Below, piece after piece: positions 14,105 to 61,722 of a DNA stretch of 64,000 nucleotides. Source of the stretch: Squalus acanthias (taxonomy: Eukaryota); the NCBI GenBank assembly GCA_030390025.1, contig CM059432.1:59274001-59338000 (forward strand). The letters run 5' to 3'. Made by a program: the position numbers and the translations under genes. Below the pieces are notes generated by a model that was given only the letters and a program-made list of their open reading frames with translations, did no database searches and was not told where the DNA came from. Numbering within the stretch: the first letter of the stretch is position 1; each line of letters opens with the position of its first letter.

Positions 14105-14956
14105 ATGGCCACGCCTACGGGATTCATCGGAAGCCTCGCCACATATGACCGAGCTCGTGAACCATTCAGTTCTTATATTGAGCGGATGGACATGTTTTTT
14201 TAGGGCCAATAACATTATTGAGACCCAAGGTGCAGATGAGAATGTTTGAGCTCAAAATAAAGTAATTCTTCAATGGAAAAAAACAATTTTTCTAACAGAG
14301 ATCGGGCCAGATGTTTATGGAACGTTAACAAACCTACTCGCGCCAGGGAAAGCGAAGGGTGTGTCGGTTAAAGACACAATGTCATGAAACCCAAGGGCCA
14401 TTTCGACCCAAAGCCTTTAGAAATAGCAGAGAGCTGTAAGTTTGGTACCAGAAACCAAAAACAAAGTAAAACCATCAGTGAGTATATCACAGCTCTTAAG
14501 AACATGTCTTTGCATTGTAATTTCGTCACATTTTTGGATCGTGCGTTGCGCAATATGTTTGTGTGTAGACTGGTGGATGAGCACACACAGTCCAAGTTAC
14601 TGAACACTCAGAACCTAACGTTCCTATCTATGGAGATGGTGTCTAAGAATGCTAGGGAACTCTGTCCAACTCAAGTGACTAATGCAGCTGAGGTCTACAG
14701 TCAAAAAGCCACCACCGAACCTAAAGCTGTGAGACCGAGTCAAAAGCATGTCGGTGACAGCAGTTCAGTGAATTGTTTTCACTGCAATGGAAATCACTCA
14801 CCACAGTCCTGCCAATACAGTAATGCAAAGTGTTTTCACTGCCAGAAGAAAGGTCATATTTCAACAACTTGCAGAGCTAGATCTAAAGCAAGAACTATTC
14901 CAGTGGAAATGCAAAGCAGCAACAACAAAAGGGAGGACTTTACAAACTTGAAATGA
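14105..14956 (+). pseudogene. gag: Gypsy gag with two zinc knuckles, disrupted
   Basis: MATPTGFIGSLATYDRAREPFSSYIERM... N-terminus; CFHCNGNHSPQSC and CFHCQKKGHISTTC knuckles in ORF 14384..14956. Confidence 0.85.
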
Positions 14957-14989
14957 ACACACCTGATGCTGAATAACTAGGCATCTACT

Positions 14990-17900
14990 GTATCTATGCA
15001 GCAGTCGTGAGAAAGACTTCCGTACAAAACTTTTGATCAACGAGCAATACATTGATATGTGTATCGGCACGGCGGCGAACTGCTCTATCATGAGTAAAGA
15101 CGCATATGAGAGTAAGTTTAATCAAATACCACTTACAAAAAGTACAGTGGAGTTAAAAATCTATTCCGGAGAAATCCTAGAGACATGTGGACAAATGGAA
15201 TGTACAGTTCAACATAATGGCCAGTCAGTAAAGCTGCCTATTATTGTAGCGAGCTACAACAACAGGCTAACTCGTATGGGCAAAGACTGGTTGAGAAAGT
15301 TAAAACTAGACTAGAAAAACATCTTCAGTGTAGATGCTTCAAAGAAGCAACTCGACACAATGTTGAACAAGTACGAAAGCATGTTCACAGACAGTTATGA
15401 GAGCATCACTGTGTATGACGCCATATCCGTATCAAGTCCACACGAAGCCTGTCTATTGGTCCCCAAGGCGTTGAAAAGTCAGGTGGAGGAAGAGCTAGCG
15501 AAACTCAGAGAATGGAGTGCTAGTAAAAACTGACACAAGTGAATGGGCTACCCCGATTGTGGTAGTGCCCAAAGCAGACAAAAGTGTGTACTTGTGCGCT
15601 GGCTACAAAGTTACTATCAACCAAGCAGTTGACGATGAGCAGTACCCGTTACCTACATCGGAAGATTTGTATGCAGCACTCTTGGGGGTCAAAGGTCTTT
15701 TCTAAGCTTGACCTGTCGCATGCTTATGCTCAACTGAATGTTGACAAAGAGTCAACAGCATCTCGTCATCAACACACACAAGGGACTGTACTCATACACC
15801 AAGCTGCCGTATGGTGTAAAGTCCTCCCCCAAAATCTTCCAGGCTACGATCAATAAGATTTTGCAAGGAGTTCCAAACTGCTTATACAATCAAGACAATG
15901 TGCTGATCGCAACAAGCTGTGAGGAAGAAAATCTAGATGTGCTAGATATAGTGCTTCAAAGGTTGAATGCCCACGACGTCAAATTAAAAAGGAGCAAATG
16001 TGCTTTTGTGCAGCCTGAGGTTGTGTACTTTGATCTGAAAGTTGATGCAAATGACTTGCAACCAGTGAAGGAAAAGTGTCATCAATGCTCCAAAGCCACA
16101 GAACGTGTCTAAGTTAAGATCTTTCCCTGGAATGGTCCAGTACTACATGCGTTTCTTACCTGAGTTAGCGACCATGTTAGCTCCATTGCGTGAGCTCCTC
16201 AAGAAGGATGTCCAGTGGAAATGGATGAAAGCGCAACAGGAAGCTTATGATGGTTGTAAGAGAAGTCTCTCCAGCGATGCTCTACTTGTGCACTACGACA
16301 GAGCGTGAGCTTAAGTTAGCGTGTGATGCTTCCAGCTACGGTGTAGGAGCTGTCATAAGCCACGTAATGGATGACGGCCAAGAGAAACCAATCATGTTTG
16401 CGTCGTGAACCCTCACAAAGAGCGAAAGAAACTACGCGCAAATTGAAAAGGAAGCACCTGCCATAGTGTTTGGAGTCAAGAAATTCCAACAGTTCCTGAT
16501 CGCAGAACGTTTACCCCGATAACCGATCACAAACTGCTCCTAGCAATATTGGGGCTCAAATCTTCCATCCCTACAATGGCCGCATCAAGAATGCAACATA
16601 GGACAGTGTTGTTGTCATAATAGGACTACGCGATTGAATATTGCACTTCAAAGCAAAACGTTATCACAGATGCCTTGTCCAGTTTGCCACGAGGACTCGT
16701 ATGTTGGGAGTGAAGGTGCGATCTTCATGCTAGGTGCAGTCGACGAAGACTTTCCTGTGACTGCAACTGAGATTGCAGATGAGACTCAAAAGGACTCAGT
16801 ACTGAAAAGAGTGTATGGAAACACCTTGAATGGATGGACTGGTCAGTGGATGGACACAGAATTGAAACCATTCCATAACCATCTTACATAGAACATAGAA
16901 CAGTACAGCACAGTACAGGCCCTTCGGCCCTCGATGTTGTGCCGAGCATTGTCCGAGACCAAGATCAAGCTATCACACTCCCTATCACTCTGGTGTGCTC
17001 CATGTGCTTATCCAATAACCGCTTGAAAGTTCCTAAAGTGTCCGACTCCACTATCACAGCAGGCAGTCCATTCCACACCCCAACCACTCTCTGAGTAAAG
17101 AATCTACCTCGGACATCCCTTCTATATCTCCCCCCATGCACCTTATAGTTATGCCCCCTTGTAACAGCTGCCTCTACCCGAGGAAATAGTCTCTGAACAT
17201 CCACTCTATCTATCCCCCTCATCATCTTATAAACCTCTATTAAGTCGCCTCTCATCCTCCTCCGCTCTAAAGAGAAAAGCCCCAACTCCCTCAATCTTTC
17301 CTCATAAGACCTCCCCCCCAAACCAGGCAGCATCCTGGTAAATCTCCTTTGCACTCTTTCCAATGCTTCTACGTCCTTCCTATAGTGAGGTGACCAGAAC
17401 TGCACACAATATTCCAAATGTGGTCTCACCAAGGTCCTGTACAGTTGCAGCATAACCTCACGGTTCTTAAACTCAAACCCTCTGTTAATAAACGCCAACA
17501 CACCATAGGCCTTCTTTACTGCTCTATCCACTTGAGTGGCAACCTTCAGAGATCTGTGGATATGAACCCCCAGATCCCTCTGCTCCTCCACGTTCCTCAG
17601 AACCCTGCCGTTGACCCTGTAATCCTTATTCAAATTTGCCCTACCAAAATGAATCACCTCGCACTTATCAGGGTTAAATTCCATCTGCCATTTTTCGGCC
17701 CAGCTCTGCATCCTATCAATGTCTCTTTGCAGCCTACAACAGCCCTCCACCTCATCCACTGCTCCACCCATCTTGGTGTCATCAGCAAATTTACTGATCC
17801 ACCCTTCAGTCCCCTCCTCCAAGTCATTGATAAAAATCACAAACAGCAGAGGACCCAGCACCGACCCCTGTGGCACACCGCTGGTAACTGGTCTCCAGTC

Positions 17901-18950
17901 CGAAAATGTTCCATCCACCACCACCCTCTGCCTTCTATGAGATAGCCAGTTACTTATCCAATCGGCCAAATTTCCCTCTATCCCACAACTCCTTACTAAA
18001 TTGTCTCGTGAGCAAGGTCGTATCAAGTGGGGAAACAGAGTGGTGTTACCTGCTTCTTTGAGAGATAGAATTCTGGTCGAACTTGATACTGAACATCCAG
18101 GGACCGTCAGTATGAAATCAATTGCAAGAAGCTTTGTTTACTGGCCTGGATTGGACAGTGATCTTGAATCACTTTCCAGCAAATGCAGCGTTTGCCAAAA
18201 TTGCAGAAACAAACCACCCAAAACTCCACTACAACCCTGGTCATGGCCAAGTAGACCTTTTCAAAGAGTACATGTAGACTTCTGTGAGAAAGCAAATGAT
18301 TATTTCCTGGTACTTGTAGATAGTTACTCAAAGTGGATTAAAGTGAAATACATGGGTTCAAATACTACAACTAAACGTACCATAGATGAGTTGAGGTCTA
18401 TCTTTGCATGTCATGGCTTACCTGAAGAGCTTGTTTCTAACAATGGCCCTCAGTTTCGTTCTGTTCTGTTACAAGAATTCATGAAACGGAACGGAATCAA
18501 ACACACTCACGTTCCACTATATCATCCAGCTTCAAATGGAGCAGCCGAAAGATCAGTCAGAATAGTGAAAGGAGCTCTCAAAAAGCAAGTTTTGCAGGGT
18601 TTTTCGGGACTCAGCATGAAGCAACGTTTGGCAAATTTCTTGCTGAAGTACAGAACTGCTCCGCACACTACAACTGGACATACCCCAGCAGAACTCTTGA
18701 TGAAGAGGAGATTGAGAACATGATTGAGGCTTGTTCAACCGAATTTGGCCTCAAGAGTTGAACAGAAACAGTTGAGTCAGAAACGTCATTATGACACCAA
18801 TTAGAAAGAACGCAGGTTCAAACAAAACGAGTGCGTTCATGTTCTCAGTTCGTGTGTCAGGTCGAGTTCACACAAGTGAGATGTAGAAACCATAGTAGAG
18901 TTTGGTGAAACCAAGAGATATTTGGTTGAAATTGGTGACAACATCTAAGT
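14990..18950 (+). pseudogene. pol: Gypsy pol (protease, RT, RNase H, integrase), multiply frameshifted and interrupted by a CR1
   Basis: WATPIVVVPK, FSKLDLSHAYAQL, LPYGVKSSPKIFQ and ACDASSYGVGAVI motifs; integrase HPG...CSVC, RVHVDF and HPASNGAAER (ORF 18001..18723). Confidence 0.92.
16888..17991 (-). mobile_element. Young 5'-truncated CR1 inserted in Gypsy pol
   Basis: Uninterrupted RT C-terminal frame (ORF 16965..18026: [21 protein letters not shown]), (CTATGTT)n tail and CTTAC at both junctions. Confidence 0.93.
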
Positions 18951-21779: not shown

Positions 21780-22773
21780 TCCAATTACACAAGATATCAA
21801 TAAATTGGTCAGGTGGGCAGAACAGTGGCAAATGGAATTCAATCCGGAGAAGTGTGAGGTAATGCATTTGGGGAGGGCTAACAAGGAAAGGGAATACACA
21901 TTAAATGGTAGGACACTGAGTAGTGTAGAGGAACACAGGGACCTTGGAGTGCATGTCTACAGATCCCTGAAGGTAGCAGGCCAAGTAGATAAGGTGGTTA
22001 AGAAGGCATACAGAATGCTTGCCTTTATTAGCCGTGACATAGAATACAAGAGCAGGAGGGTTATGCTTCACAAAAAGAAAATACTGCAGATGCTGGAAAT
22101 CTGAAATAAAAACAGAAAATGCTGGAGATACTCAGCAGGTCAGGCAGCATCTGTGAAGAGAGAAACAGAGTTAACATTGCAGGGGTTATGCTTCAACTGT
22201 ATAAAACACTAGTTAGGCCTCAGCTAGAGTACTGCGTGCAGTTCTGGTCACCACATTACAGGAAAGATGTGATTGCACTTAGAGAGGGTACAGAGGAGAT
22301 TTACAAGGATGTTGCTGGGAGTAGAGAATCTTAGCTATGAGGAAAGACTGGATAGGCTGGGTCTGTTTTCCTTGGAACAGAGGAGGCTGAGGGGAGACCT
22401 TATTGAGGTGTATAAAATTATGAGGGGCATAGATAAAGTGGATAGAAAGGACCTATTTCCCTTAGCAGAGGGGTCAAAAACCAGGGGGCACAGATTTAAA
22501 AGTAATTGGGGGAAGGTTTAAAGGGGATTTGAGGGGAAATTTCTTCACCCAGAGGGTTGTGGGGGTCTGGAATTCGCTGCCTGAAATGGTGGTAGAGGCA
22601 GGAACCCTAACCACATTTAAAAAGTACTTGGATGTGCACTTGGGATGCTCTGATCTGCAGGGTTACGGACCAAGAGCTGGGAAGTGGGATTAGGCTGGAT
22701 AGCTCTTTGTTGGCCAACGCGGACACGATGGGCCGAAATGGCCTCCTTCCGTGCTGTAACTTTCTATGATTCT
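21780..22773 (+). mobile_element. CR1 3' portion
   Basis: ORFs 21805..22521 (WQMEFNPEKC, RPQLEYC, RRLRGDLI) and tail TTCTATGATTCT. Confidence 0.9.
22071..22178 (-). mobile_element. Penelope-like element terminal repeat fragment inserted in CR1
   Basis: Same sequence as 34226-34363, flanked by duplicated CR1 target GCAGG(A)GGGTTATGCTTCA (22052-22070, 22179-22195). Confidence 0.75.
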
Positions 22774-33537: not shown

Positions 33538-33887
33538 ACTCTATCTCTGTAATCTCCTCCAGCCCTACAAGCCTTTGAGATCTCGGCGCTCCTCCAATTC
33601 TGGCATCTTGTGCATTCCCACTTTTAATCGCTCCACCATTGGCGGCTGTGCTTTCAGCTGCCTTGGCCCGAAGCTCTGGAATTCCCTCCCTAAACCTCTC
33701 CGCCTCTCTACCTCTCTCTAAGTTGCTCCTTAAAACCTACCTCTTTGACCAAGCTTTTGGTCATCTGTCCTGATATCTCCTTCTGTGGCTCGGTGTCAAA
33801 AAAACTTATTGATAACGCTCTTGTTAAGCGCCTTGGACGTTTTGCTACGTTAAAGGCGCTGTATAAATGCAAGTTGTTGTTGCTGTT
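33538..33887 (+). mobile_element. L2 LINE 3' end
   Basis: YLCNLLQPY...STIGGCAFS...LWNSLP coding end, 3' UTR AAAGGCGCTGTATAAATGCAAG and (TTG)n tail. Confidence 0.85.
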
Positions 33888-34225
33888 GAATATCACGGGT
33901 CCTGCAAAAACAGCCAACATCAGAGACATTCTGGTTTATTATTTGTATCATGAATATTCAAATATCTAATTTTTTTTTTAATTATTTACATTCTTCTATT
34001 GAATTTATCCAATATTATGGTTTGCACAAATCTAAATACAAAAATCCCCAGTATGTAGGGGAGAAGGCCATAAATGGACGTACATATTAAAAAGACAATT
34101 ACAATAAAACGAACATCAATTCGGATTTATAGTAAATGAAGCACATTCCAAACCAAAATTGCCTGGGAGTTCCATTCTGGATTGTTTAGTATTGCCTTTC
34201 TCAAGCAGGATTGATTAACACCTTA

Positions 34226-34363
34226 ATCTGACGAAAGGTAAACGATCTGAAACGTTAACTCTGTTTCTCTCTCCGCAGATGCTGTCTGACCTGCTGAGTA
34301 TTTCCAGCATTTTCTGTTTTTATTTCAGATTTCCAACATCCGCAGTATTTTGGTTTTGTATTA
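34226..34363 (+). mobile_element. Penelope-like terminal repeat with truncated hammerhead motif
   Basis: 13-bp TSD GATTAACACCTTA (34213-34225, 34364-34376). Begins at CTGACGA-A-AGGT/ATCT-GAAACGTT-AACT. Confidence 0.8.
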
Positions 34364-34384
34364 GATTAACACCTTATTGTTTTT

Positions 34385-34699
34385 TAAATAAAAATGGAAA
34401 ATGCTGAAAACCCTCAGCAGGTCAGGCAGCACCTGTGAAGGGAGAAACAGAGTTAACGTTTCAGGTTGATGACCTTTCATCAGAACTGGGAGAGGTTAGA
34501 GATTTAACAGTTCATAAGCAAGTACAGAGCCGGGGGTAAAATGGGGGTGGGTGGAAAGAACAAAGGCAATATCTGCGATAGGGTGGAGGGCAGGAGAGAT
34601 TAAATGACAAAAGGGATGATGGTACAATGCAAAAGGGAGTGGTAATGTGACAGTATAAAAACAAAAGATGGGTCTAGAGGAGGTATAAATGGCAACAGT
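34385..34699 (-). mobile_element. Penelope-like element 3' fragment
   Basis: 11-bp TSD TTATTGTTTTT (34374-34384, 34700-34710); opposite-strand copy of the neighbouring repeat. Confidence 0.8.
34451..34487 (-). ncRNA. Minimal type I hammerhead ribozyme motif
   Basis: Minus strand reads AGTT-CTGATGA-A-AGGT(CATCA)ACCT-GAAACGTT-AACT: stem I AGUU/AACU, core CUGAUGA and GAAA, stem II, palindromic ACGU in place of stem III, and a UH site. Confidence 0.75.
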
Positions 34700-34777
34700 T
34701 TATTGTTTTTGATGCTTCTTAGTCTTAATCCATGAAACACAAGCACAATACAGTGTTAATCAATGATGTAACATGGA

Positions 34778-35368
34778 CACAACAACTTGCATTTATGTCG
34801 TGCCTTTAATGTACTAAAACGTCCCACGGTGCTTCACAGGAGCGTTATCAAACAAAATTCGACAACAAGCAATATAAGGAGATAGTAGGACAGGTGACAT
34901 AAAACTTAGTCAAAGAGGTAGGTTTTAAGGAGCATCTTAAAGGAGGAGAGGTAGAGAGGCGGAGAGGTAGAGAGGCGGAGAGGTAGAGGCGGAGAGGTTT
35001 CGGGGGGCCTAGGCAGCTGAAGGCACGGCCGTCAATGGTGGAATGATTAAAATCGAGGATGCGCAAGTGGCCAGAATTGGAGGAGCGCAAAGATCTCAGC
35101 GAGTTGTAGGGCTGGAGGAGGGTACAAAGATAGGGAGGGGTGAGGCCATGGAGGGATTTGAAAACAAGGATGAGAATTTTTAAATCGAGGTGTTGCTGAA
35201 CCGGGAACCAATGTAGGTCAGTGAACATAGGGGTGATGGGTAAGCGGGACTTGGTGCGAGTTAGGATATAGGCAGCAGGGTTTTGGTTGAGGTCAAGTTT
35301 ATGAAGGGTGGAAAATGAGATGCCGGCCAGGAGAGCATTGGAATAGTCAAGTCTAGAGGTAACAAACA
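34778..35368 (-). mobile_element. L2 LINE 3' portion
   Basis: ORF 34848..35369 FVTSRLDYSNALL...ITPMFTDLHWFP, plus the L2 3' UTR. Confidence 0.88.
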
Positions 35369-58785: not shown

Positions 58786-61089
58786 ACTGCAGCGTTACCT
58801 GCTGAGTTAATTTGCTTCTGTATATATTATTTTCTTGTTATAAACAATTCATAGCCTGAAACATATGGTCCATCAGCATATTGGTTTTCTGTCTCCTGGA
58901 AGACTAGGAACATGGAATGGGCAAACCGTACTATTTCCAATGGCAAAATTAAAAGAGAAAAAGGAAAATGAATAAAACCAATGTCAAATTTCCACAACTT
59001 CACTTCTCAACTCATCACCAGCGTCATAAGAACCACCATAAATAAAGTTTTTAAAAATTAAGGGAGGGGATTAAGCTATTAATTTGGTTTTTTAAATCTT
59101 AATAAATGCATTTACATGTCATTCAGTTTATCATTCAAATGTGATTCACTTCAAGTTTGACTGGTATTGTTGCTACCATCAATAGTATGCATGCACACAA
59201 TAAACCTGTACTGGCAGTAGGACCTACACAATGGACGTGTACTGGCAGAACGACCTATACAGTAGGCACGTACTGTGATGCAACTGTTATCAAATAGCTT
59301 GTTGACACTCACCATCAAGACTCACACATGAATAATGGTCACTTGGCTGAGTCACAAAAGGGTGACCAGGCTCTGAGGAATCATGCTGAAGCAAAGAGCC
59401 TTCAGAAGAGGAGGGAGTAGAGAAAGTTGGTGAAAAACAGACTTTAAAAATCTAAAAACGAACCCATTCTATACTAATGTTATTTTATGTTACTGGGAAT
59501 AATTTCACAAAAAAATCAGAATAAAACGAATCTTTGATTTAGATTACAAAGGGGTAGTTTTACAAAATGGTACTCCCAGTACACAAGGCACGTGTTCAAA
59601 TTTATAATATGCAATTCTAGCCAGCAAAGCTCTCCACCAACAATACTAATACAGAAAATTACCCCTACAGGGAATTCTGGACATTACGGAAGGAAAATCA
59701 TAAAAACACGTGTCTGAATGATCGATATGTACCCCCAGAAGGCAAGGCATGGTACTAGCAGCGTATTTATGTAAAATTACCTTTTATATGTATATCACGA
59801 TATTATTATAGACGGGAGTGTATCTTTATTTAAGCATAAGACACAATAATGGTAACTTCTGATTTTAGATTGCCCACTGCAGCCTCGAGGAGATTGTGTA
59901 TCCTGTTTGACTTTTACTTGGTTGTATTTTCTTTTAAGATCAATCTTAATCTGAAAACACAAGCTTTGAAAAATTGGTTACGTGGAATCATTGCTTCAGC
60001 GCCAATTGGAGAGATTTTCAATTTATATGCAATTGGAATTGTACCACAAGAAATCTGTTGTCTGGGTGCTTATTTTGTGAGAAACAGTCCATCATCTTTC
60101 TCACAGACTTAAAGCCTTGTTTATACTTACACGTTTAACCCATACATACTTGGTAGGTCTATTTGTTAAACTTTTTCTAATTTTAGTATATCTTACTTTC
60201 CTTTTTCCTCCTGGCTTCCATTTTGGTTTGGGAGTAACTTTAAAAAATAAAACCTGGGTTTTCATTAACTGGAGGATTAGACACAAGTCAAAGAACTGCA
60301 GGAGACCCACATCATCACCAAAATACAAGCCTGGAAAAATAGGCTGGAACATCAGGTTTCCCATCATTTATTGTCATGCACTTTCTCTACAAACCAAAAG
60401 GTCTTCGAAAACAATAGACTTTTAAATAAATATTGAAATTGTTCTGTGGCCAACCAGAAGGTCCATCTTACTCAGCTTAATGCCAATCATTTACATTTAG
60501 CTGCTGAGCATAGCAGACATATAGTTGTCCAACTATGGCACATATTTTACAATAGGGATGAATATCCTGACCCTTGTCCTCAGAGAATGCTCAGTTCTCT
60601 TGTCACAAAGGTCTGAAAAAAAAGGGCAGAGACCTGATCACAGAATCTCCACCTTCTTACATTGCCTTGGCATTTCTGGGGCTATCCTAGGAGGCTGAGC
60701 ATGACCTTCAAGCAACACAAATGCATTTAAATGAGGCGGGAGGGAACATTACCAGACTTCAGGCTCATTATAATTAGTACTCTAATAAAGACGAAGCTGT
60801 GTCCCATCCCCAAAACCCCCACTAACCCACAGGGGTCCCGAGTAGGGTTGGAGGCATTTCTGAAGGTTTGATCATGTGACATCTGACCACATGACATCTA
60901 CAAATGTTATTGCATTTACCTTATAAATGTTGGGTCCCCTGTAGTTGAGAATCTTTACTCGTGGTTTCGCACCAGCACCTGCGGTACGAGAAGTTCAAGA
61001 ACCAGGAGACCACCTGTGAGCAGGCGAAGAGGGGAGCCCAAGGGCGGGAACGAGGGGAGCCTGAGGGGCGCCCGAGGTTGGGAACGATT

Positions 61090-61520
61090 CCCATTCCCCA
61101 GTCTCCATCTCTCCCCGAGCCCCCATTCCCCAGTCTCCCCGAGCCCCCATTCCCCAGTCTCCCCGAGCCCCCATTCCCCAGTCTCCCCCTCTCCCGAGCC
61201 CCCATTCCCCAGTCTCCCCCTCTCCCGAGCCCCCATTCCCCCCCTCTCCCAGAGGCCCCATTCCCCATCTCTCCCCGAGGCCCCATTCCCCAGTCTCCAT
61301 CTCTCCCCGAGCCCCCATTCCCCAGTCTCCATCTCTCCCCGAGCCCCCAATCCCAGTCTCCCCCTCTCCCTGAGCCCCCATTCCCCAGTCTCCCCCTCTC
61401 TGAGCCCCCATTCCCCAGTATCCATCTCTCCCCGAGCCCTCATTCCCCAGTCTCCCCCCTCTCCCTGAGCCCCAATTCCAGTCTCCCTCTTTACCCCCAA
61501 CTCTCAAGCATCCCCCCATT
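61090..61520. repeat. C-rich/G-rich minisatellite, 23-31-bp units
   Basis: Repeats of CCCCATTCCCCAGTCTCC(ATCTCTCC/CCCTCT)CCGAG. Confidence 0.95.
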
Positions 61521-61559
61521 TCAGGGCCCCTCCACCACCACCCTAACAATTCCTTAGCA

Positions 61560-61722
61560 CCCCCCAAAAGCTTAGTCAAAAAGATAGGTCTGAAGGAACG
61601 TCGTAAAGGAGCAGAGAGAAGCGGAGAGGTTTAGGGAAGGAATGCAGACCTTAGGGCCTAGGCAGTTGAAGGCTCAGCCACCGATGGTGGAGCAAAGAAA
61701 ATCGGGGATACACAAGAGGCCA
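61560..61722 (-). mobile_element. L2 3' fragment
   Basis: Matches the reverse complement of the 33600-33760 L2 segment. Confidence 0.65.

What the first reader, a model, noticed from the sequence alone, without database searches (positions are those of the whole stretch)
34213..34710. Two adjacent, opposite-strand Penelope-like insertions each carrying a minimal hammerhead ribozyme
Seen: a complete motif on the minus strand at 34487-34451 (AGUU CUGAUGA A AGGU-CAUCA-ACCU GAA ACGU U AACU) and a second on the plus strand at 34228-34260 lacking most of the 5' strand of stem I. Each insert has its own TSD (13 and 11 bp) and the TSDs overlap at 34374-34376. Established: Penelope-like elements carry minimal type I hammerheads in their terminal repeats, with a palindrome replacing stem III, proposed to cleave as dimers. 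Inference: a non-coding, ribozyme-bearing short retroelement family (retrozyme-like) that hit the same site twice, suggesting target preference. A third copy is at 22071-22178.
Basis: partly seen in the sequence, partly recalled or inferred. Interest (0 to 1): 0.75.

Follow-up and report, generated by a model that had tools for sequence, protein, structure and literature searches.

The report
Tail-to-tail Penelope stubs with hammerheads
Two short, old, mutated end-pieces of a very abundant repeat, likely a Penelope-type jumping gene, sit tail to tail around one 21-base landing site, each with a tiny hammerhead RNA motif of a published kind that is predicted to be inactive here, so this is likely ordinary debris rather than a new ribozyme element.

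Summary
In detail: two opposite-strand inserts (138 and 315 bp), 13- and 11-bp target duplications overlapping by 3 bases, and a minimal type I hammerhead core in each.

They belong to a very abundant family in four organisms' sequencing runs. Its copies end at two 3' points about 33 nt apart, the published Penelope 'tail' signature. They are best read as 5'-truncated Penelope pseudo-LTR ends, not retrozymes: no tandem units, no canonical hammerhead. I could not link them to an RT/GIY-YIG frame (no genome held).

Both ribozymes are predicted dead here. Copy 1 has 1 bp of stem I, copy 2 has a stem II mismatch, and opposite strands cannot give a cis dimer. The third copy has no hammerhead. A second species appears to carry both inserts; no single-insert allele was seen.

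One double hit does not show target preference. Most likely two successive insertions; one event primed on both strands is not excluded. Opposite-strand motif pairs are published (PMC4209133), and this scan has noted Penelope hammerheads in shark-type genomes in hundreds of findings on other DNA.

The parts
34213..34225 (.). TSD1, left copy (13 bp)
   Evidence: identical to 34364-34376
34226..34363 (+). Insert 1: 138-bp stub, from 2 nt before the hammerhead core to the end of the optional tail
   Evidence: 85% identical to insert 2 over 99 nt, 91% to copy 3 over 113 nt
34228..34260 (+). Hammerhead core 1; stem II 4 bp with one G-U; stem I 1 bp; predicted cut 34256/34257; predicted inactive
34326..34363 (+). 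Optional 3' 'tail', present in insert 1 and copy 3, absent in insert 2
   Evidence: family 3' ends pile at 34324-34327 and 34357-34359; alignment
34364..34384 (.). 21-bp target stretch between the two 3' ends: TSD1 right copy (34364-34376) overlapping TSD2 left copy (34374-34384); 76% A+T
34385..34699 (-). Insert 2: 315-bp 5'-truncated pseudo-LTR-like end without tail
   Evidence: its 3' end is equivalent to 34325 of insert 1
34451..34487 (-). Hammerhead 2: stem I 4 bp, core, extra A after position 9, stem II 4 bp plus a C-A mismatch, AACGUU palindrome; predicted cut 34455/34454
   Evidence: 85-89% of family depth carries the pairing letter at 34467
34483..34517 (-). Inferred promoter: initiator-like heptamer at 34489-34483 and a TATA-like box about 30 nt upstream, mutated at 2 positions in this copy
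   Evidence: sequence; family letters at 34513/34514 and 5'-end pile-up at 34486 in 1 of 4 runs; motif consensus recalled; function untested
34700..34710 (.). TSD2, right copy (11 bp)
   Evidence: identical to 34374-34384
22071..22182 (-). Copy 3: tailed stub without a hammerhead core, interrupting a LINE RT frame; 13-bp TSD at 22058-22070 / 22183-22195

Best explanation
Two inserts with their own target duplications face each other across a 21-bp A+T-rich site; they are likely 5'-truncated pseudo-LTR ends of one abundant Penelope-like retrotransposon, likely inserted one after the other, and their hammerheads are predicted to be inactive passengers. Inferred mechanism: the parent's GIY-YIG endonuclease nicks A+T-rich DNA and its RT primes cDNA from the nick at one of two internal start points in the RNA, giving a tailed end (insert 1) or a tail-less end (insert 2). 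Insert 1 likely ran off the 5' end of a transcript that starts at the first bases of the hammerhead. Insert 2 likely came from a longer transcript and stopped about 210 nt further upstream. The second insertion cut within 8-10 bp of the first cut, on the other strand; the order cannot be read. Both then decayed neutrally.
For: Shown: separate exact TSDs. Motif has the core, the extra base after position 9, the palindrome and a 4-bp stem I, as described in PMC4209133. Very abundant family: 43,291 / 87,586 / 83,332 / 108,776 contigs laid on the 1,021-base stretch in 4 of 4 runs, depth concentrated on the inserts; these are not copy numbers and include a LINE end. Two 3' end clusters with unrelated flanks (agreement 0.35-0.40): 34324-34327 in all four runs, 34357-34359 in two, among the 24 rows shown of 2,876. 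This matches the optional 30-40-bp tail and two RT start sites of PMC11167929. A 5' pile-up at 34486 (124 contigs, run X1) is equivalent to 34225, one base from the start of insert 1. At the 5 listed positions where the two inserts differ, one has the family-majority letter and the other does not: one master sequence, private decay. A review states that PLEs tend to insert into or next to existing copies (PMC6765202); the anole PLE protein prefers A+T-rich DNA in vitro.
Against: No RT or GIY-YIG is linked to these stubs: none by motif search in the window, none among 13 protein hits to the 44-aa open frame (0 of 13 with a Pfam family). No allele with only one insert was seen. The pair has one tailed and one tail-less end and similar decay, which also fits a single two-sided event. 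The 5' pile-up appeared for only 1 of 4 runs in the rows shown. Position 10.1-11.1 is A-U rather than the usual G-C.
Confidence: 0.62

Rival explanations
1. One event: a dimeric PLE protein nicked both strands 21 nt apart and primed cDNA on both, as proposed for head-to-head units, but the 21-bp duplex did not come apart. Each cDNA was then resolved in turn by a second nick and fill-in, giving two tail-to-tail inserts with overlapping TSDs.
For: Nick polarity (top-strand primer to the right of the bottom-strand primer) is the same as in head-to-head units (inference). One end has the tail and one does not, as published for whole insertion units (PMC8557442). The anole protein cuts and extends both strands and is predicted to be a dimer. 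Both inserts appear in the second species and show similar decay.
Against: Four simultaneous nicks cannot give this product: neither central primer piece would hold the 3 overlapping bases, so resolution must be staged, with one piece held by only 8-10 bp (strand bookkeeping). Chance adjacency alone gives about 0.2% per copy. It is a single case; no tail-to-tail joints were among the rows shown (15 of 1,246 joints shown).
Confidence: 0.25
2. One reading: a separate non-coding, ribozyme-driven short retroelement (retrozyme-like) with a preferred target.
For: All three copies in the window are short, non-coding and TSD-flanked. A 2026 preprint derives animal retrozymes from PLE pLTRs and lists them in one chondrichthyan.
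Against: Retrozymes are head-to-tail repeats with a hammerhead in each unit; none here. The three copies have three different 5' ends and copy 3 lacks the hammerhead, as expected of truncation products. The three target sites share no obvious sequence.
Confidence: 0.07
3. The pair was kept by selection because the inverted repeat or the ribozymes do something for the host, such as a dsRNA hairpin or a cleavage switch.
For: A read-through transcript is predicted to fold a ~100-bp hairpin (-145 kcal/mol). The junctions appear shared with a second species.
Against: Both hammerheads carry disrupting changes relative to the family; the inserts differ from each other by 15%, so the hairpin is decaying.
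Confidence: 0.03
4. Assembly artefact.
For: Inverted repeats can mis-assemble; no laid contig spans the whole stretch.
Against: The arms are only 85% identical; both TSDs are exact; a contig of a same-species run matches the left flank and the start of insert 1 with 0 substitutions and one 1-base gap over 363 bases (that run may be the window's source); a second species shows both outer junctions.
Confidence: 0.03

Closest known systems
Minimal hammerheads (min-HHR) in pLTRs of metazoan Penelope-like elements, Cervera and De la Pena 2014 (PMC4209133; parts 1-2 of 4 read)
   Same: Type I core, extra base between 9 and 10.1, palindrome instead of helix III, short helix I, mostly single motifs from truncated elements; the paper also reports pairs on opposite strands about 100-700 bp apart in Schistosoma (here 255 bp between cores).
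   Different: Helix II is 4-5 bp rather than 7-8 bp; A-U at 10.1-11.1; cleavage triplet GUU; the searched text and 2 of 3 supplements name no shark and do not hold this motif.
PAc, Poseidon element of Anolis carolinensis, Frangieh et al. 2024 (PMC11167929; parts 1-2 of 4 read)
   Same: Two RT start points giving an optional tail; A+T-rich targets; hammerhead overlapping the start of a reading frame (here an ATG in the core of copy 2 and a 44-codon open frame in insert 1).
   Different: No protein is linked here; the clade of the parent is not determined; the 44-aa frame has no RT-bearing homologue in my searches.
Complex insertion units of endonuclease-positive PLEs (PMC8557442, PMC3846280; passages read)
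   Same: Inverted partner copy, tail at one end only, TSDs of about 8-13 bp.
   Different: Published units are mostly head to head inside one TSD pair; this pair is tail to tail with target DNA between and two TSD pairs. PMC3846280 mentions tail-to-tail only as the predicted outcome of self-priming, which would not leave 21 bp of target in the middle.
Non-LTR retrozymes (PMC7229834, passages; bioRxiv 10.64898/2026.07.22.740005, part 1 of 5 and passages)
   Same: Short, non-coding, type I hammerhead, probably moved by PLE enzymes.
   Different: Retrozymes are tandem repeats, mostly with canonical hammerheads, expressed as circles; here no tandem, minimal motif, variable 5' ends.

Membership tests
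min-HHR of metazoan PLEs | Conserved core CUGANGA ... GAAA ... UH | tested here: met
   both inserts; absent in copy 3
min-HHR of metazoan PLEs | Unpaired base between positions 9 and 10.1 | tested here: met
   extra A in both
min-HHR of metazoan PLEs | Palindromic 15.2-16.2, no loop 3 | tested here: met
   AACGUU in both
min-HHR of metazoan PLEs | Helix I of 4-5 bp | tested here: inconclusive
   4 bp in copy 2, 1 bp in the truncated copy 1
min-HHR of metazoan PLEs | G10.1-C11.1 pair (described as highly conserved, not as required) | tested here: not met
   A-U in both copies
min-HHR of metazoan PLEs | Covariation in stems across copies | not testable with these tools
   only two copies in hand; one G-C to G-U change, no two-sided change; family majority keeps a fifth stem II pair
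min-HHR of metazoan PLEs | Self-cleavage as a dimer | not testable with these tools
   needs an in vitro assay; folding predicts neither copy is active in place
Endonuclease-positive Penelope-like element | RT + GIY-YIG frame flanked by this repeat | tested here: inconclusive
   not in the window; no genome held; protein and contig searches gave no parent; unchecked scan notes report parents in this genome
Endonuclease-positive Penelope-like element | Optional 30-40-bp 3' tail | tested here: met
   two 3' end clusters about 33 nt apart; tail in 2 of 3 window copies
Endonuclease-positive Penelope-like element | Variable 5' truncation with TSDs | tested here: met
   three different 5' ends; TSDs of 13, 11, 13 bp
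Endonuclease-positive Penelope-like element | Intron in or near the pLTR | not tested
   acceptor-like sequence seen at 34255-34281; no RNA laid
Non-LTR retrozyme | Head-to-tail repeat units, each with a complete hammerhead | tested here: not met
   copies are single or inverted
Non-LTR retrozyme | Canonical type I hammerhead (6-bp helix I, small helix III) | tested here: not met
   minimal motif; no Rfam hit; the 2026 preprint also admits minimal models
Non-LTR retrozyme | Circular RNA of unit length | not testable with these tools
   only contigs available

The most novel reading that the evidence does not exclude
The pair is the footprint of one Penelope complex that nicked and primed both DNA strands 21 bases apart without the ends separating, so that each cDNA was resolved as its own insertion. 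Tail-to-tail pairs with overlapping TSDs would then be a second, undescribed outcome of two-sided priming, and counting them by spacer length would test directly how these elements make inverted repeats and one-sided tails.
Probability: 0.25. Interest if true: 0.5.

Novelty: new member of a known kind. Interest (0 to 1): 0.2.

Why it matters
As best explained it matters little: decayed ends of a common element, with a ribozyme type published in 2014. The one open point is the geometry. The insertion mechanism of Penelope-like elements is unsettled, and a genome-wide excess of tail-to-tail pairs with overlapping TSDs would be in vivo evidence for priming on both strands. This single locus cannot show that.

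Tried and rejected
Own genome: none held, so no copy alignment, covariation test, pair census or parent search.

Rfam: no hammerhead match; miRNA-model hits come from the inverted repeat and were rejected.

Parent search: two DNA patterns gave 0 hits in viral contigs and 0 in metagenome contigs. Prokaryote genomes gave 1 hit, a 23-base chance match with unrelated flanks. The 44-aa frame of insert 1 gave 0 of 8 candidates among longer proteins and 13 short hits by phmmer. None had a Pfam family; the 10 of 13 looked up were unnamed clusters of 1-3 members. I read them as gene calls across other repeat copies. Recalled PLE protein motifs gave 5 weak matches in the window's six frames, none convincing.

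Alleles: organisms C and D gave no contig of the orthologous left flank; a hole proves nothing. No RNA holder listed, and no RNA run was laid.

Papers: the motif was not found in library full text, in 2 of 3 supplements of PMC4209133 (file 1 unreadable) or in the supplement of PMC8557442. The dimer paper by Lunse et al. is not held; I know it only from the review's citation. bioRxiv supplements were not seen and may list the chondrichthyan retrozyme families. A search for 'Penelope-like' + 'tail-to-tail' + 'target site duplication' listed 5 papers; I read passages of one.

The bacterial promoter scan is not applicable. My early idea that the inserts are different subfamilies was dropped: the listed differences fit private decay. 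My early idea that overlapping TSDs exclude a single event was softened: they exclude only four simultaneous nicks.

Full report
Observation. The sequence shows insert 1 at 34226-34363 (+) between two copies of a 13-mer, and insert 2 at 34385-34699 (-) between two copies of an 11-mer; the inner copies overlap at 34374-34376. Shared words of 11 nt or more arise in about 0.015% of random window pairs and 0.13% of AT-rich pairs. The inserts are 85% identical over 99 nt. A third copy (22071-22182, -) has a 13-bp TSD and interrupts a LINE RT frame. Their 3' ends face each other across 21 bp of target DNA, so the layout is tail to tail.

The motif. Both inserts carry CUGANGA, one extra A, a 4-bp stem II, GAAAC, GUU and AACU. 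The bare core pattern is not above chance. With stem II and the palindrome required, 2 are found against 0.04 expected, and the full motif with a 4-bp stem I appeared in 0 of 200 simulated windows. Rfam has no hammerhead match. The layout is that of the minimal hammerheads in Penelope pseudo-LTRs, whose paper also reports pairs on opposite strands 100-700 bp apart (PMC4209133). Copy 3 begins after stem II and has no hammerhead.

Activity here. Copy 1 has 1 bp of stem I. Copy 2 has a C-A mismatch where 85-89% of family depth in four runs carries the pairing letter. In folding, stem II of copy 2 forms with probability about 0.34 and a rival hairpin that traps the core with about 0.65; with the majority letter stem II reaches 0.96-0.97. 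The two motifs cannot lie in sense on one RNA, so no cis dimer is possible, and a read-through RNA is predicted to pair them into a ~100-bp hairpin of -145 kcal/mol. These are predictions, not assays.

The family. No genome is held, so I used public runs. On the 1,021-base stretch 43,291 to 108,776 contigs were laid per run in 4 of 4 runs from four organisms, with depth concentrated on the inserts (not copy numbers). Loose ends with unrelated flanks pile at 34324-34327 (all four runs) and 34357-34359 (two runs) in the 24 of 2,876 rows shown. Two ends about 33 nt apart match the optional 30-40-bp tail that PMC11167929 traces to two RT start sites. Insert 2 stops at the first end; insert 1 and copy 3 run to the second. 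A 5' pile-up at 34486 (124 contigs, one run) is one base from the equivalent start of insert 1. An initiator-like heptamer lies there, and family letters at 34513/34514 give a TATA-like box 30 nt upstream (consensus motifs recalled). I took the reading of this point as a transcription start from earlier scan notes and tested it only this far. The host is likely a cartilaginous fish; this rests on my recall of the repeats and on those notes, not on a tool result. Penelope-like elements are reported as expanded in the whale shark (passages).

Parent. I found no RT or GIY-YIG joined to this end: none in the window, none through the 44-codon open frame of insert 1, none in contig collections. Membership therefore rests on motif, tail, truncation pattern and TSDs. 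Unchecked scan notes report RT/GIY-YIG parents with hammerheads in the same genome; I could not confirm that they are this family.

Age. A run of organism A matches the left flank and the first 17 bases of insert 1 with no substitution. Two samples of organism B show the same junction with 24 other letters in 363-374 bases. They reach only 28 and 17 bases into the insert, below the tool's 31-base bridging rule, but show no loose end there. One B contig bridges the outer junction of insert 2 (34618-34840, 6 other letters, 25 gap letters, depth 5.8). Organisms C and D gave no orthologous contig. No empty or single-insert allele was seen. At the 5 listed positions where the inserts differ, one has the majority letter, so both look like decayed copies of one master, older than the A/B split.

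One event or two. Two successive insertions give this product in either order. Four simultaneous nicks cannot, because neither central primer piece would hold the 3 overlapping bases. Priming on both strands followed by staged resolution can. In favour of that rival: one tail only (PMC8557442), similar decay, and the anole protein's activity on both strands. Against it: a piece held by 8-10 bp during resolution, and the chance rate. At 3 copies per 64 kb, about 0.2% of copies have a neighbour within 21 bp, and PLEs are said to insert next to earlier copies (PMC6765202). I put two events at about 0.62 and one event at 0.25. Neither needs a specific target sequence, and the three target sites share only moderate A+T richness (58-76%).

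Retrozyme test. Retrozymes are head-to-tail repeats with a hammerhead in each unit, expressed as circles. Tandem structure and canonical motif are not met; circles are untestable here.

Novelty. The ribozyme type, opposite-strand pairs and tails are in print. The scan's index holds 770 findings with the words Penelope, hammerhead, shark, pLTR, minimal, ribozyme. Searches for the tail-to-tail layout returned no note describing it among the 8 listed each time, and 5 papers, of which I read passages of one. Verdict: new member of a known kind, interest 0.2.

Noticed in passing
window 34255-34281 (+); equivalents at 34456-34430 (-) and in copy 3: Just 3' of the predicted cut site the sequence reads like a 3' splice site: UUAAC, a pyrimidine tract, then CAG followed by AUG. 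The predicted cut falls inside the branch-point-like word, so cleavage and splicing would exclude each other. Consensus recalled; none of the 3 scan notes listed describes this.
   Followed up: no
window 34292-34309 (+), 34419-34402 (-), and copy 3: A small hairpin with a 5-bp stem is kept in all three copies while its loop varies; it lies 16-33 nt before the first 3' end and could be a protein-binding site.
   Followed up: no
window 33541-33880 and 34779-35135: The pair sits in a ~890-bp spacer between two oppositely oriented repeat ends, 77% identical, which I read as L2-type LINE 3' ends from recall.
   Followed up: partly
joints 34322-34327 to 34779: Dozens of contigs per run (31 in X1, 77 in X7 in the rows shown) hold a tail-less family end followed at unknown distance by the same LINE end; may be chance between two abundant repeats or a liking for LINE tails.
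   Followed up: no
joint 34486 to 34248: In 4 of 4 runs a few contigs (2-4 each) join an antisense arm ending at the 5' pile-up point to a sense arm, the head-to-head layout.
   Followed up: no
window 14372-18723: Decayed LTR-retrotransposon frames with an integrase core and zinc-binding domain, interrupted by a LINE RT frame at 16965-18137 (-).
   Followed up: partly
window 60887-61630: Long G+C-rich repetitive stretch with open frames on both strands.
   Followed up: no
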